A program made the position numbers and the translations under genes. Below, in pieces: positions 755-4,234 of a stretch of DNA of 4,234 nucleotides. The notes under the pieces were generated by a model that had not been told where the DNA came from, did not search any database, and was given only the letters and a program-made list of their open reading frames with translations. How positions within the stretch are numbered: the first letter of the stretch is position 1; each line of letters begins with the position of its first letter. This DNA is from a virus (lineage: Duplodnaviria > Heunggongvirae > Uroviricota > Caudoviricetes): the IMG/VR virus record IMGVR_UViG_3300028965_000035; one strand, given 5' to 3'.

Positions 755-1210
755 TTACAGATAATTGCGGTAACTGTTATCCGGGGTGATTTCCGGGTCA
801 GGCTCCGTGCGGGGAATTTCCCGCCATTCCCGCGCCACCGGTGCCGCCCGGCTGGCCGGAACAGTGTCCTGCGGGTAAATATCCAGATATTTCTCCCGCC
901 ATTTCTGTAATTCCGGGTCTCCGGCCATTTCTTTCAGTACCGCATGCCGGTTTACGGGGCTGCGTTTAAACAGGTCAGGACGGTCACAGGTAAATTCCCG
1001 CAGAAAACGCCCCAGCGGGATGTCTGTGGTGCGCCCGTCAGCGAGGATACGCACAAGGATACTGAATTTACGGCGGTACGGGTTCCAGACAATGTCCGGG
1101 CAGCGGTACGGCATTTCCCACGGAATACCGTCTTCCAGAATGCCGACCACGGCCACATCGGGAAAACCGGCAGAACGGTAAATCTCACCGGGCTGGGGAA
1201 AATCAAACAT
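755..1210 (-). CDS. Hypothetical protein, 151 aa (P4 orf151 equivalent), function unknown
   Basis: Complete ORF in the track. ATG at 1210-1208 overlaps the end of the upstream epsilon frame (ATGTTTGA, 8-nt overlap). TAA stop at 757-755. Length and position match P4 orf151. Confidence 0.75.
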   Translation of the reverse strand: MFDFPQPGEIYRSAGFPDVAVVGILEDGIPWEMPYRCPDIVWNPYRRKFSILVRILADGRTTDIPLGRFLREFTCDRPDLFKRSPVNRHAVLKEMAGDPELQKWREKYLDIYPQDTVPASRAAPVAREWREIPRTEPDPEITPDNSYRNYL

Positions 1211-1490
1211 GCGTCCTGTCTCCCCGGTCTTTCTGCTGGGCGAGAAAATCGCGGCACAGGCCTTTGGCTTTCAGCTCATTCAGCACAAAATCAATATCTT
1301 CATTCAGGTAGCTGAAAATATGCGGAATGTAGAGCTGATGCAGGCCGGAGAGTTCACGGTGAATCAAATCACCCCCAACAAACCGGGATACGGCGCTGGC
1401 GCGGTTGAGCTTATGGTAAGCCTCAATGCTGAGGTGTTCACGGGCGTCATGACGCGCTGAGACGGTCTGAGGGGTTTTTTTATTACGCAC
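1203..1490 (-). CDS. epsilon: Epsilon-like helper-prophage derepression protein, 95 aa if started at the GTG
   Basis: The track shows a 175-aa frame (1203-1730) whose upstream part overlaps kil in another frame. The only start with a ribosome-binding site is GTG at 1490-1488, preceded by GGAGGTG (complement of 1495-1501) with a 4-6 nt spacer. It lies 2 nt past the kil TAA stop (1485-1483). Product ends ...DRGDRTHV. Assignment is by position and size; the start codon is inferred. Confidence 0.55.
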
Positions 1491-1680
1491 GGGACACCTC
1501 CACCACCGGCAGACGGGCAGCAAGGGAGAGCACATAGTCACGGACAAGGGAACGGCGGGCACTGCGTTCATCACCGGCGACGGTGCGAAGCATGCAGATA
1601 CGGGGATGACGGTCTGCGCGACGGACAGCCGCAAACACAAAGACAAATTCAGGGTGTGAAGGGGTAAGGGTTGTAGCCAT
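1483..1680 (-). CDS. kil: Kil, 65 aa; an in-frame internal ATG at 1593-1591 would give a nested 36-aa product (eta-like)
   Basis: ATG at 1680-1678 preceded by AAGGAG (complement of 1689-1694) with 8-nt spacer. This is residue 147 of the 211-aa track ORF 1483-2118, whose upstream part covers the CI RNA/seqA leader and is therefore not coding. Product [65 protein letters not shown]. Confidence 0.6.
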
Positions 1681-1686
1681 AAGGCA

Positions 1687-1699
1687 GTCTCCTTCGAGT
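1687..1699 (-). promoter_or_regulatory. seqC-like target of the CI RNA loop, overlapping the kil ribosome-binding site
   Basis: + strand GTCTCCTTCGAGT (1687-1699) matches 12 of 13 positions of GTCGCCTTCGAGT at 1946-1958. Its transcript ACUCGAAGGAGAC is complementary to the loop AUUCUUCGAG in the 1746-1810 RNA (about 9 bp including one G-U). Confidence 0.55.
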
Positions 1700-1745
1700 A
1701 GCAAATAACTGCTATCGCCGGAGTTCTCACGCTCGATGGCGATAG

Positions 1746-1810
1746 CCCAGACGGGGGTGAGAATACCGGCCTCGAAGAATACCGGCCAGCCCGGAGGCTG
1801 CCCCGCCTGA
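1746..1810 (-). ncRNA. cI: CI-type immunity RNA (antisense regulator carrying seqB in a hairpin loop); ends approximate
   Basis: Minus-strand transcript folds into an outer stem (GGCGGGG 1807-1801 with CCCCGUC 1756-1750) enclosing two hairpins: CAGCC-UCCG-GGCUG, and a CCGG/CCGG stem with 10-nt loop AUUCUUCGAG. The complement of that loop, CTCGAAG (1771-1777), occurs only here in the window. Flanked by the direct repeat GAATACCGGCC (1761-1771, 1777-1787). Confidence 0.5.
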
Positions 1811-1919
1811 GCTACCATTGACTCAGTGGCATAACATGCGATTGCGAACAGGATCATACCTGCACGGCAAACCACACGCCACACCATAATCTGGCGCTCT
1901 GTGGCGTTGATTGCGACAC

Positions 1920-1941
1920 AAAAAAAGACGCATGGCGCGTC
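1920..1941 (-). terminator. Terminator-like hairpin plus U7 in the PLE leader, immediately downstream of seqA
   Basis: Minus-strand RNA GACGC-GCCAU-GCGUC (5-bp GC-rich stem, 1941-1927) followed directly by UUUUUUU (1926-1920). The stem is short, so this is more likely a weak or conditional terminator than a constitutive one. Confidence 0.4.
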
Positions 1942-1945
1942 ATAT

Positions 1946-1958
1946 GTCGCCTTCGAGT
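1946..1958 (-). promoter_or_regulatory. seqA-like target of the CI RNA loop in the 5' leader
   Basis: GTCGCCTTCGAGT, direct repeat of the seqC box, about 40-50 nt downstream of the predicted PLE start; complementary to the seqB loop (about 8 bp). Confidence 0.5.
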
Positions 1959-1996
1959 TACACGGGTTCTCACGCCCGGCTGCCGATTTTGCGGCA

Positions 1997-2034
1997 GCGG
2001 AAAAACTATATCCGCAAATGCCGGAAAAAGGCAA
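1997..2034 (-). promoter_or_regulatory. PLE-like constitutive sigma70 promoter of the leftward operon
   Basis: Minus strand -35 TTGCCT (complement of 2029-2034), 18-bp spacer, -10 TATAGT (complement of 2005-2010). Predicted start near 1997, between the vis stop and seqA. Confidence 0.5.
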
Positions 2035-2069
2035 GCCAGAAAAAGGGAGTTTTTGCAGAGCGGGCATCA

Positions 2070-2336
2070 TCATGCGTCGTACCCCCGTTTGCGTCCGGCA
2101 ATGCGCCCGGTCATCCATGCGGTGATTTCAGAGTGCAGCCAGGCCACATTTTTACCGCCAAGACTCACCTGCGGCGGAAATTCCCCCTTACGGATGAGTT
2201 CATAGATGGTCGAGCGTGACAGGCCGCACAGGTGCATCACTTCCGGCAGACGTAAAAAACGCTCCTGCGTGATGTCCGGCAGCGGCATCAGTGGCGTCAC
2301 TGGGGCGGGAGACGGGGAAGAAAAAACAGCTTGCAT
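2070..2336 (-). CDS. vis: Vis, AlpA/excisionase-family helix-turn-helix regulator, 88 aa
   Basis: Complete ORF. ATG at 2336-2334 preceded by GAGGT (complement of 2344-2348) with 7-nt spacer. Product contains [27 protein letters not shown], a typical AlpA/Xis-type HTH. First gene downstream of the PLL-like promoter. Confidence 0.8.
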
Positions 2337-2885: not shown

Positions 2886-3620
2886 ATGTCTGACAACACC
2901 ATCCCTGAATATCTGCAACCCGCGCTGGCACAACTGGAAAAGGCCAGAGCCGCCCATCTTGAGAACGCCCGCCTGATGGATGAGACCGTCACGGCCATTG
3001 AACGGGCAGAGCAGGAAAAAAATGCGCTGGCGCAGGCCGACGGAAACGACGCTGACGACTGGCGCACGGCCTTTCGTGCAGCCGGTGGTGTCCTGAGCGA
3101 CGAGCTGAAACAGCGCCACATTGAGCGCGTGGCACGCCGGGAGCTGGTACAGGAATATGACAATCTGGCCGTGGTGCTGAATTTCGAACGTGAACGCCTG
3201 AAAGGGGCGTGTGACAGCACGGCCACCGCCTACCGGAAGGCACATCATCACCTTCTGAGTCTGTATGCAGAGCATGAGCTGGAACACGCCCTGAATGAAA
3301 CCTGTGAGGCGCTTGTCCGGGCAATGCATCTGAGTATCCTGGTACAGGAAAATCCGCTCGCCAACACCACCGGCCATCAGGGCTACGTCGCACCCGATAA
3401 GGCTGTCATGCAGCAGGTGAAATCATCGCTGGAACAGAAAATTAAACAGATGCAAATCAGCCTCACCGGCGAGCCGGTTCTCCGGCTGGCCGGACTGTCA
3501 GCGGCAACACTCCCGCACATGGATTATGAGGTGGCAGGCACACCGGCACAGCGCAAGGTGTGGCAGGACAAAATAGACCAGCAGGGAGCAGAGCTTAAGG
3601 CCAGAGGACTGCTGTCATGA
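2886..3620 (+). CDS. sid: Sid, external scaffold that redirects helper capsid assembly to the small size, 244 aa
   Basis: ATG at 2886 preceded by GAGGAG (2873-2878) with 7-nt spacer. The track's 2868 start is an in-frame GTG without a ribosome-binding site. TGA stop at 3618-3620 overlaps the delta ATG. Assigned by size and position directly before delta. Confidence 0.85.
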   Translation: MSDNTIPEYLQPALAQLEKARAAHLENARLMDETVTAIERAEQEKNALAQADGNDADDWRTAFRAAGGVLSDELKQRHIERVARRELVQEYDNLAVVLNFERERLKGACDSTATAYRKAHHHLLSLYAEHELEHALNETCEALVRAMHLSILVQENPLANTTGHQGYVAPDKAVMQQVKSSLEQKIKQMQISLTGEPVLRLAGLSAATLPHMDYEVAGTPAQRKVWQDKIDQQGAELKARGLLS

Positions 3621-4117
3621 TTTACTGCCCGTCGTGTGGACATGTTGCTCACACCCGTCGCGCACATTTCATGGACGATGGCACCAAGATAATGATTGCA
3701 CAGTGCCGGAATATTTATTGCTCTGCGACATTTGAAGCGAGTGAAAGCTTTTTCTCTGACAGTAAAGATTCAGGAATGGAATACATTTCAGGCAAACAGA
3801 GATACCGCGATTCACTGACGTCGGCCTCCGGCAGTATGAAACGCCCGAAAAGAATGCTTGTTACCGGATATTGTTGTCGGAGATGTAAAGGCCTTGCGCT
3901 GTCAAGAACATCGCGGCGTCTGTCTCAGGAAGTCACCGAGCGTTTTTATGTGTGCACGGATCCGGGCTGTGGTCTGGTGTTTAAAACGCTTCAGACCATC
4001 ACCCGCTTCATTGTCCGCCCGGTCACGCCGGACGAACTGGCAGAACGCCTGCATGAAAAACAGGAACTGCCGCCAGTACGGTTAAAAACACAATCATATT
4101 CGCTGCGTCTGGAATGA
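3617..4117 (+). CDS. delta: Delta, late-gene transcriptional activator made of two Ogr-like zinc-finger modules, 166 aa
   Basis: ATG at 3617 overlaps the sid stop (ATGA); GAGGA at 3604-3608. N-terminal module MIYCPSCGH...CRNIYCSATF and second module CCRRCKG...CTDPGCGLVF each have CxxC...Cx4C spacing like Ogr-family activators. Confidence 0.85.
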   Translation: MIYCPSCGHVAHTRRAHFMDDGTKIMIAQCRNIYCSATFEASESFFSDSKDSGMEYISGKQRYRDSLTSASGSMKRPKRMLVTGYCCRRCKGLALSRTSRRLSQEVTERFYVCTDPGCGLVFKTLQTITRFIVRPVTPDELAERLHEKQELPPVRLKTQSYSLRLE

Positions 4118-4178
4118 GGGCTGCCGGTTAACCCCGGCCGTTGCGTATTACCGTGAAGGAGATCGGTGAGTAACATCG

Positions 4179-4234
4179 ATGGAGATCGGTTCGTGTCACT
4201 TTCACAGAACCGTTTTTAAATTACCTTCACTGAT
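4179..4234 (+). CDS. 5' end of the next late-operon ORF (psu position in P4), truncated by the window end; product not assignable from 18 codons
   Basis: Only frame open to the window end after delta. First ATG at 4179 (MEIGSCHFHRTVFKLPSL...). The nearest strong Shine-Dalgarno, AAGGAGA at 4156-4162, is 16 nt upstream, which is too far for a good site. Identity uncertain. Confidence 0.3.
   Translation, partial: MEIGSCHFHRTVFKLPSL

What the first reader, a model, noticed from the sequence alone, without database searches (positions are those of the whole stretch)
1488..1501. Epsilon appears to start at GTG rather than ATG
In-frame ATGs further upstream (1571, 1535) lack ribosome-binding sites and would overlap kil by 50-90 nt. 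The GTG at 1490 has a strong GGAGGTG site and gives a 95-aa product. A non-ATG start placed directly at the kil stop could keep the helper-derepressor level low and dependent on kil translation.
Basis: inference. Interest (0 to 1): 0.35.

Follow-up and report, generated by a model that had tools for sequence, protein, structure and literature searches.

The report
Known GTG start of P4 epsilon gene

Summary
The window is 97% identical to satellite phage P4. On the minus strand a GTG (1490-1488) follows GGAGGTG (1501-1495) after a 4-nt spacer. It opens a 95-codon frame ending at 1203 and overlaps the kil/eta stop (TAA 1485-1483) by 8 nt. All three P4 GenBank/RefSeq records, and PGAP in E. coli prophages, already start epsilon at this GTG.

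Comparative data confirm the start. In 174 homologous loci the codon is GTG (158) or ATG (16), never a non-start. Thirteen loci carry an in-frame TGA five codons upstream yet keep an intact 95-codon frame. The upstream ATGs (1571, 1535) have no Shine-Dalgarno site and are often lost through kil-synonymous changes. Third-position substitution bias switches from the kil frame to the epsilon frame at the GTG. The 95-position Pfam profile PF25738 begins there.

The regulatory idea is plausible but untested. The start/stop overlap is conserved, which fits coupling to kil translation. However, GTG is specific to the E. coli P4 clade. The 12 divergent homologues in the junction set plus two more distant ones, and 13 E. 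coli genomes with P4-type context, use ATG, so a weak start is not a family requirement.

Verdict: real, already known, low interest.

The parts
1495..1501 (-). Shine-Dalgarno site GGAGGTG (core GGAGG 1501-1497) for epsilon. It lies inside the last codons of kil/eta (GTG GAG GTG = V-E-V).
   Evidence: for the sequence; duplex with the 16S 3' end is -10.6 kcal/mol, top 1% of 212 NTG triplets. G at 1500, 1498 and 1497 is invariant in 174 loci, and 1498 is a kil wobble base.
1488..1490 (-). GTG initiation codon of epsilon
   Evidence: annotated start of epsilon (AA 1-95) in X02534, X51522 and NC_001609; the homologous codon is GTG in 158 and ATG in 16 of 174 loci, and the T and G are invariant. 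GTG in 960 and ATG in 13 complete E. coli genomes.
1203..1490 (-). epsilon coding sequence: 95 aa, predicted 10,994 Da, pI 9.25, and the only Met is the initiator. It is the P4 E anti-repressor of the helper P2 C repressor.
   Evidence: for the translation. Pfam PF25738 'Derepression', 170 bits, profile 1-95 on residues 1-95; 89 homologues, mostly 93-99 aa. ORF intact in 173 of 174 loci. for the mass.
1483..1680 (-). kil (65 codons), the C-terminal part of the eta frame. Its stop TAA 1485-1483 lies 2 nt after the epsilon GTG.
   Evidence: for the translation. NCBIfam Icd-like domain; substitutions fall 48/53/254 on kil codon positions 1/2/3. PMC10111431 summarises Forti et al. 1999.
1483..2073 (-). 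eta (196 codons, Ash/Icd-like) in the same frame as kil. Its ATG 2073-2071 overlaps the vis stop (ATGA 2073-2070).
   Evidence: for the sequence. PGAP CDS of 591 nt in a 99.7% identical prophage. Pfam Phage_ASH.
1483..1490 (-). 8-nt start/stop overlap GTGCGTAA (epsilon start, kil/eta stop), the geometry expected for termination-reinitiation coupling
   Evidence: TAA at +5 in 172 of 174 loci; the other two (L011, L014) have the stop at +8. ATGAATAA and ATGCATAA in distant loci L180 and L181.
1533..1535 (-). in-frame ATG that is not used (would give 110 aa)
   Evidence: no Shine-Dalgarno site (+0.6 kcal/mol). ACG in 8 of 12 divergent loci; the change is a kil-synonymous TAT to TAC.
1569..1571 (-). 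in-frame ATG that is not used (would give 122 aa)
   Evidence: no Shine-Dalgarno site (+1.2 kcal/mol). ACG in 7 of 12 divergent loci.
1203..1210 (-). second 8-nt overlap ATGTTTGA (orf151 start, epsilon stop)
   Evidence: for the sequence; the same context occurs in most homologous loci.
755..1210 (-). orf151, the next gene of the left operon

Best explanation
The feature is the translation initiation region of epsilon. Epsilon is the gene of a P4-type satellite phage whose 95-aa product (E) binds the helper P2 C repressor and derepresses the helper prophage.

Ribosomes start at GTG 1490-1488, guided by the Shine-Dalgarno site GGAGG(TG) at 1501-1495. That site is written into the last codons of the upstream kil/eta frame. 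The start lies 2 nt before the kil/eta stop codon (8-nt overlap GTGCGTAA).

Shown here: the position of the start. Inferred: ribosomes finishing kil or eta probably reinitiate at this GTG, in addition to any direct initiation at the strong Shine-Dalgarno site. Epsilon output would then follow translation of kil/eta. According to the literature, that translation is also needed to carry transcription past the immunity-controlled terminator into epsilon.

GTG instead of ATG is a clade-specific state of E. coli P4-type elements. It probably lowers initiation somewhat but is not essential to the design.
For: Identity and annotation
- The window is 97% identical to P4.
- X02534, X51522 and NC_001609 annotate 'epsilon gene product (AA 1-95)' starting at the homologous base, and P4 reads GTG there.
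- PGAP calls the same 288-nt CDS in E. coli prophages, including the ATG and TGA(-5) variants.

Family boundary
- Pfam PF25738 has 95 positions. It aligns positions 2-95 to residues 82-175 of the maximal ORF, so it starts at the GTG codon.
- Homologue proteins begin M-[RHPC]-[NT] at this column.

Comparative DNA
- 174 loci carry GTG (158) or ATG (16) and never another codon. The epsilon ORF is intact in 173.
- All 12 divergent loci, with the kil-epsilon query 72-79% identical, have ATG at the site. They include Serratia, Buttiauxella, Scandinavium, Kluyvera and Citrobacter.
- Thirteen loci carry TGA 5 codons upstream with an intact ORF. Forty complete E. coli genomes match that haplotype exactly.
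- Upstream ATGs are lost by kil-synonymous changes.
- Upstream of the GTG, substitutions fall 48/53/254 on kil codon positions 1/2/3, and kil position 3 is epsilon-frame position 2. Downstream they fall 216/198/436 on epsilon positions 1/2/3.
- Only 16 of 65 kil wobble bases are invariant. Two of them are the T of the start codon and a G of GGAGG.

Signals
- The Shine-Dalgarno duplex is -10.6 kcal/mol, against +1.2 and +0.6 for the ATGs.

Coupling geometry
- The stop lies at +5 in 172 of 174 loci. The same overlap occurs in L180, where the upstream gene is a 144-aa ORF with no Pfam hit instead of kil, and in L181.

Function
- E acts as an anti-repressor by binding P2 C (PMC2995052).
- Epsilon expressed from a rhamnose-inducible promoter activates the P2 prophage (PMC12239096, PMC9942202).
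- Eta/kil translation prevents termination, so downstream genes are read (PMC10111431 summarising Forti et al. 1999).
Against: - There is no direct protein evidence here. The primary papers (Liu et al. 1997, Lin 1984, Forti et al. 1999) are not held, so I could not check whether the N-terminus was ever sequenced.
- The loci are not independent samples. Most are 96-98% identical P4-type prophages.
- For coupling, the strong Shine-Dalgarno site could support fully independent initiation. No significant or covarying RNA structure hides it (z = 0.75, covariation term 0.18).
- For 'GTG keeps the level low', ATG occurs naturally in the same context. The G/A change also alters kil/eta (Arg/His), so selection could act on either gene.
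Confidence: 0.93

Rival explanations
1. Epsilon starts at an upstream in-frame ATG (1571 or 1535), giving a 122- or 110-aa protein that overlaps kil in another frame.
For: The epsilon frame is open 108 codons upstream of the GTG in the window and in most P4-type loci. ATG is the commoner start codon. A few automatic gene calls in metagenomes are longer (P0003 156 aa, P0065 167 aa, P0067 162 aa).
Against: - Neither ATG has a Shine-Dalgarno site.
- Both ATGs are ACG in most divergent homologues.
- Thirteen loci and 40 E. coli genomes have TGA between these ATGs and the GTG, with the ORF intact.
- Substitutions in this stretch hit epsilon-frame position 2, so they follow the kil frame.
- The upstream epsilon-frame peptide is not conserved, and the Pfam profile does not cover it.
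- The long gene calls begin with kil's own N-terminus, so they are frame fusions.
Confidence: 0.02
2. Epsilon starts downstream at TTG 1367, which has a GGGGG site, giving a 54-aa protein.
For:: TTG 1367 has a purine-rich site upstream with -9.0 kcal/mol.
Against: - Residues 16-41 ([18 protein letters not shown]...) are the best-conserved part of the family. They form predicted helices with pLDDT near 90.
- Codons 3-41 show third-position bias of 158 out of 300 substitutions.
- The GGGGG encodes the conserved G39-G40.
- The Pfam profile covers the whole 95 aa.
Confidence: 0.02
3. The GTG is used, but entirely independently of kil/eta translation. The overlap with the kil stop is only genome compaction, and GTG versus ATG is neutral.
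For: The Shine-Dalgarno site is strong with good spacing. No RNA structure occludes it. ATG and GTG both occur in nature in identical context. Short overlaps are common in phage operons, and this window has three others (ATGA at 2070-2073 and 3617-3620, ATGTTTGA at 1203-1210).
Against: The exact overlap is kept in 172 of 174 loci and in two distant loci, one with a different upstream gene. That is more than compaction alone needs. Transcription of epsilon already depends on kil/eta translation according to the literature summarised.
Confidence: 0.35

Closest known systems
Bacteriophage P4 epsilon gene / E anti-repressor (X51522 complement 7888-8175; NP_042039.1; Pfam PF25738)
   Same: The gene, position in the left operon, Shine-Dalgarno site, GTG start and 8-nt overlap with the upstream frame are all the same, and the length is 95 aa. 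The nucleotide context GGAGGTGTCCCGTGCGTAATAAAAAA is identical.
   Different: One search shows one amino-acid difference near the N-terminus (Thr6 here, Ala6 in P4). Overall the window is a 97% identical variant, with an insertion-sequence end after delta where P4 continues to psu.
Epsilon homologues of P4-like satellites in other Enterobacterales (93-99 aa 'derepression proteins')
   Same: The start position, the Shine-Dalgarno site inside the upstream gene, the overlap NTG-NN-TAA and the helical core are the same.
   Different: They start with ATG and have His or Pro as residue 2. Most carry a 4-residue insertion after residue 15.
Translationally coupled overlapping gene pairs in bacterial and phage operons (termination-reinitiation; general textbook knowledge, not read here)
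   Same: The downstream start codon lies a few nucleotides from the upstream stop, and a Shine-Dalgarno site is embedded in the upstream coding sequence.
   Different: Dependence of epsilon on kil/eta translation has not been shown. The overlap is 8 nt rather than the commoner 4 (ATGA) or 1 nt.

Membership tests
P4 epsilon / Derepression protein family (Pfam PF25738) | Full-length sequence match above the curated threshold | tested here: met
   170.4 bits against a cut-off of 27, with residues 1-95 on profile positions 1-95.
P4 epsilon / Derepression protein family (Pfam PF25738) | Position in the P4 left operon, downstream of kil/eta (Ash/Icd-like) and upstream of orf151, orf106 and the alpha primase | tested here: met
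   Searches show the same gene order in P4 and in E. coli prophages.
P4 epsilon / Derepression protein family (Pfam PF25738) | The product binds the helper P2 C repressor and derepresses the prophage | not testable with these tools
   Known for P4 E from PMC2995052. It is inferred here from 96-97% identity to close relatives (P0001, P0002).
Gene initiated at a non-ATG (GTG) codon | The start codon is fixed by comparative evidence: homologues start at the same column and no usable upstream start exists | tested here: met
Gene initiated at a non-ATG (GTG) codon | The N-terminus of the protein has been determined experimentally | not testable with these tools
   The primary papers are not held. 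No solved structure exists.
Translationally coupled gene pair (termination-reinitiation) | The downstream start lies within a few nucleotides of the upstream stop, with a Shine-Dalgarno site inside the upstream gene | tested here: met
Translationally coupled gene pair (termination-reinitiation) | Downstream translation falls when upstream translation is blocked | not testable with these tools
   This needs reporter fusions. Only the transcriptional dependence is reported in the literature.
Translationally coupled gene pair (termination-reinitiation) | The initiation region is masked by RNA structure that upstream ribosomes open (a frequent but not obligatory feature) | tested here: not met
   fold z-score 0.75; no covariation support.

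The most novel reading that the evidence does not exclude
The switch from ATG (12 divergent homologues plus two more distant ones) to GTG (about 99% of E. coli P4-type elements) is an adaptive attenuation of anti-repressor synthesis, not a neutral or kil-driven change. Under this reading the rare ATG elements (13 genomes) are natural high-epsilon variants that differ in how readily they derepress helper prophages.
Probability: 0.15. Interest if true: 0.3.

Novelty: already known. Interest (0 to 1): 0.08.

Why it matters
The result confirms that automatic and historical annotations of epsilon are right. That matters to anyone cloning epsilon to induce P2 helpers in P4/P2 transduction systems, because the 95-aa frame is the whole gene and its native start is a GTG embedded in kil/eta. 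The comparative picture gives a simple natural experiment on start-codon choice in a helper-hijacking gene, but it does not open a new question. That picture is a conserved start/stop overlap, GTG only in the E. coli P4 clade, and ATG elsewhere.

Tried and rejected
- Primary literature. Liu et al. 1997 (PMC191670, PubMed 9151842), Forti et al. 1999 (PMC94026), Lin 1984 (PMC320406) and Lindqvist et al. 1993 are not held, or the query timed out. A text search for 'P4 epsilon' plus GTG found nothing. Whether the N-terminus was ever sequenced stays unverified.
- Sequencing runs.
- RNA structure hiding the Shine-Dalgarno site. The single-sequence fold is no better than shuffles, and the alignment fold has no covariation. 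The idea is rejected as unsupported.
- Solved structures. There is no relative by sequence. The AlphaFold model (pLDDT 76) has four helices, three of them long, with residues 1-13 at low confidence. It gives no Foldseek match below E = 1 in the PDB.
- Upstream ATG starts, a downstream TTG start and kil-epsilon fusion products were considered and rejected (see rival explanations). A programmed +1 shift from kil into epsilon is not excluded formally, but the TGA(-5) lineage argues against it.
- The genome-contig scan gave only 12 loci. The viral and metagenome scans were dominated by near-identical P4-type elements, so the number of independent lineages is far smaller than 174.

Full report
**What the window is.** The 4234-base window is 97% identical to phage P4 (X51522 / NC_001609, positions 6686-10838).

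The minus strand carries these P4 left-operon features, going down the coordinates:
- vis/alpA: 2336-2070.
- eta: 2073-1483, 196 codons.
- CI immunity RNA: 1822-1735, Rfam C4 family, 74 bits. It lies inside the eta frame.
- kil: 1680-1483, 65 codons, nested in the 3' part of eta.
- epsilon: 1490-1203.
- orf151: 1210-755.
- orf106: 619-299.
- The first codons of the alpha primase, starting at 284.

The plus strand carries sid (2886-3620) and delta (3617-4117).

**Check of the observation.** The minus strand reads GGAGGTG-TCCC-GTG-CGT-AAT-AAA. GGAGGTG lies at 1501-1495 and GTG at 1490-1488. Translation from the GTG gives 95 codons ending at 1203.
- kil ends at TAA 1485-1483, so the genes overlap by the 8 nt GTGCGTAA.
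- The in-frame ATGs at 1571 and 1535 exist.
- I scored pairing of the 15 nt upstream of every ATG/GTG/TTG on this strand with the 3' end of 16S rRNA. GTG1490 scores -10.6 kcal/mol, second best of 212 (top 1%).
- ATG1571 scores +1.2 and ATG1535 scores +0.6. The accepted starts of kil, orf151, orf106 and alpha score -8.1 to -11.1.

**It is the annotated start.** X02534 (1984), X51522 (1990) and RefSeq NC_001609 all list 'epsilon gene product (AA 1-95)' with its first base at the position homologous to window 1490. P4 has the same GGAGGTGTCCCGTG there. NCBI's pipeline calls the same 288-nt CDS, overlapping the upstream Icd-like gene by 8 nt, in E. coli prophages.

**Independent comparative test.** The epsilon frame is open for 108 codons upstream of the GTG, so the ORF itself does not fix the start. 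I collected homologous loci from species-representative genomes, IMG/VR and metagenomes and mapped the junction in 174 of them.
1. The codon homologous to 1490-1488 is GTG in 158 loci and ATG in 16, and never anything else. The epsilon ORF is intact in 173.
2. All 12 divergent loci have ATG at exactly this site, behind GAGG/GGAGG. Their kil-epsilon stretch is 72-79% identical, and they include Serratia, Buttiauxella, Scandinavium, Tenebrionibacter, Intestinirhabdus, Kluyvera and Citrobacter. Two still more distant loci do the same (L180 ATGAATAA, L181 ATGCATAA).
3. Four P4-type loci have ATG in otherwise identical context. Among 5426 complete E. coli genomes, 960 have the GTG form and 13 the ATG form.
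4. Thirteen loci carry a G-to-A change that creates TGA five codons upstream of the GTG in the epsilon frame. It is Val to Met in kil. The 95-codon ORF stays intact in these loci. Forty complete E. coli genomes match this haplotype exactly. In these elements no upstream start is possible.
5. The upstream ATGs are ACG in 8 and 7 of the 12 divergent loci. The changes are synonymous in kil, TAT to TAC and GAT-GAA to GAC-GAG.
6. I compared the window with ten divergent loci. Between the kil ATG and the epsilon start, substitutions fall 48/53/254 on kil codon positions 1/2/3. The favoured position is position 2 of the epsilon frame, so that frame is not protein-coding there.
7. Downstream of the GTG the pattern switches to 216/198/436 on epsilon positions 1/2/3. 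The bias is already present in codons 3-41.
8. Only 16 of 65 kil wobble bases are invariant in this set. Two of them are the T of the start codon (1489) and a G of GGAGG (1498).
9. The 95-position Pfam profile PF25738 aligns to the maximal ORF beginning at the GTG codon. Homologue proteins of 93-99 aa all begin at that column.

Three long gene calls were aligned (P0003, P0065, P0067). All begin with kil's own N-terminus and are frame fusions.

**How it probably works.** According to the literature, E binds the helper's C repressor and turns P2 to lytic growth (PMC2995052). Epsilon expressed from a rhamnose promoter is enough to activate a P2 prophage (PMC12239096, PMC9942202).

The initiation signals are embedded in the end of kil/eta. 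The start lies 2 nt before the kil/eta stop in 172 of 174 loci, and the other two have the stop 3 nt later. The same overlap recurs in L180, where the upstream gene is a 144-aa ORF with no Pfam hit rather than kil. That is the geometry of termination-reinitiation coupling. The same device is used at epsilon/orf151 (ATGTTTGA, 1210-1203), and ATGA overlaps join vis/eta and sid/delta.

A published summary of Forti et al. 1999 says eta/kil translation prevents premature termination, so that downstream genes are transcribed (PMC10111431). Dependence of epsilon on kil/eta translation is therefore already established at the level of transcription polarity.

Direct translational coupling remains an inference. 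The Shine-Dalgarno site is strong enough for independent initiation, and I found no significant or conserved RNA structure masking it (z = 0.75, covariation term 0.18).

**On GTG as a throttle.** From general knowledge, GTG is used by roughly one E. coli gene in seven and usually initiates less well than ATG. Some attenuation is therefore likely.

GTG is confined to the E. coli P4 clade. Every divergent homologue examined has ATG, and ATG occurs in P4-type context in nature. A weak start is therefore not a conserved requirement of the system. The same G/A base also changes kil/eta (Arg versus His, third residue from the C-terminus), so its fixation need not concern epsilon at all.

**Other points about the protein.**
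- The mature protein is predicted at 10,994 Da with pI 9.25. Its only Met is the initiator.
- An AlphaFold model (mean pLDDT 76) has four helices spanning residues 16-90, three of them long.
- Residues 1-13 have low confidence. This fits the indel-rich, variable N-terminal tail seen in the family.
- No similar solved structure was found.

**Verdict.** It repeats what the P4 records have stated since 1984. The regulatory gloss is reasonable but untested, and the ATG variants partly undercut it. Novelty: already known. Interest: low.

Noticed in passing
window 4139-4234: Similarity to P4 stops at 4141, between delta and psu. The last 96 bases are 99% identical to a stretch of Escherichia phages PhiR12_1/2/4. 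In PhiR12_1 that stretch abuts genes noted as 'ATP-binding transposition helper protein' and 'Transposase / Integrase'. This P4-like element therefore seems to carry an insertion sequence (possibly IS21-type) just after delta.
   Followed up: partly
window 1735-1822, 1921-1998 and 1959-2011, minus strand: There are three Rfam hits: C4 antisense RNA (the P4 CI immunity RNA, 74 bits), isrK (71 bits) and the C4 target element c4-a1b1 (50 bits). All lie inside the eta frame upstream of kil. A promoter-like site at 2034-2005 (TTGCCT-18-TATAGT) fits PLE.
   Followed up: partly
L001 (NC_001609) 1983-2399, corresponding to window 1483-1899: RefSeq still annotates a 137-aa 'cI gene product / transcriptional repressor' here (P4p10). 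This ORF is in the kil/eta frame. The Rfam hit, and the literature summary, indicate that the immunity factor is the CI RNA, so the product name looks outdated.
   Followed up: partly
L006 1576-1833 (E. coli 1604D011, NZ_CP149553): An 85-aa 'derepression protein' begins MATTPTKK, using the Shine-Dalgarno site and first four codons of kil (AGGAGGCTGCCGCAATGGCTACAACC). It then continues as an epsilon-like protein. It sits after a truncated Icd-like pseudogene and next to cox-family, 3'-5' exonuclease and RecE genes, which is not a P4-type context. It looks like a kil-to-epsilon deletion or fusion.
   Followed up: no
window 2070-2073, 1483-1490 and 1203-1210 (minus strand), 3617-3620 (plus strand): Start/stop overlaps chain vis-eta (ATGA), kil/eta-epsilon (GTGCGTAA), epsilon-orf151 (ATGTTTGA) and sid-delta (ATGA). 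The two 8-nt overlaps have the same start-NN-stop layout.
   Followed up: partly
window 1491-1814 minus strand (epsilon frame upstream of the GTG); proteins P0003, P0065, P0067: The epsilon reading frame stays open 108 codons upstream of its start, across all of kil. A few metagenomic gene calls are kil-epsilon fusions that start with kil's N-terminus and then switch frame. These are most likely frameshift errors or mutations. A programmed +1 shift was not tested.
   Followed up: partly
L084-L094, L005, L009 (position homologous to window 1503; also 1499): Eight of the 13 TGA(-5) loci also have GGGGG instead of GGAGG in the Shine-Dalgarno site, which may weaken initiation further.
   Followed up: no
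L004 2582-2842: The divergent E. coli element has an extra 86-aa ORF between orf151 and orf106 that is absent from the window and from P4. It may be the small protein family reported as present in 61% of P4-like elements but missing from P4 (PMC8628076).
   Followed up: no
window 1203-1490 minus strand, residues 1-20 of epsilon: The N-terminal tail is variable. Residue 2 is R, H, P or C because its middle base is the wobble base of kil's last Ala codon. There is a 4-residue indel after residue 15, and the whole tail is absent in 79-aa homologues (P0082, P0086). Residues 1-13 are predicted with low confidence.
   Followed up: partly
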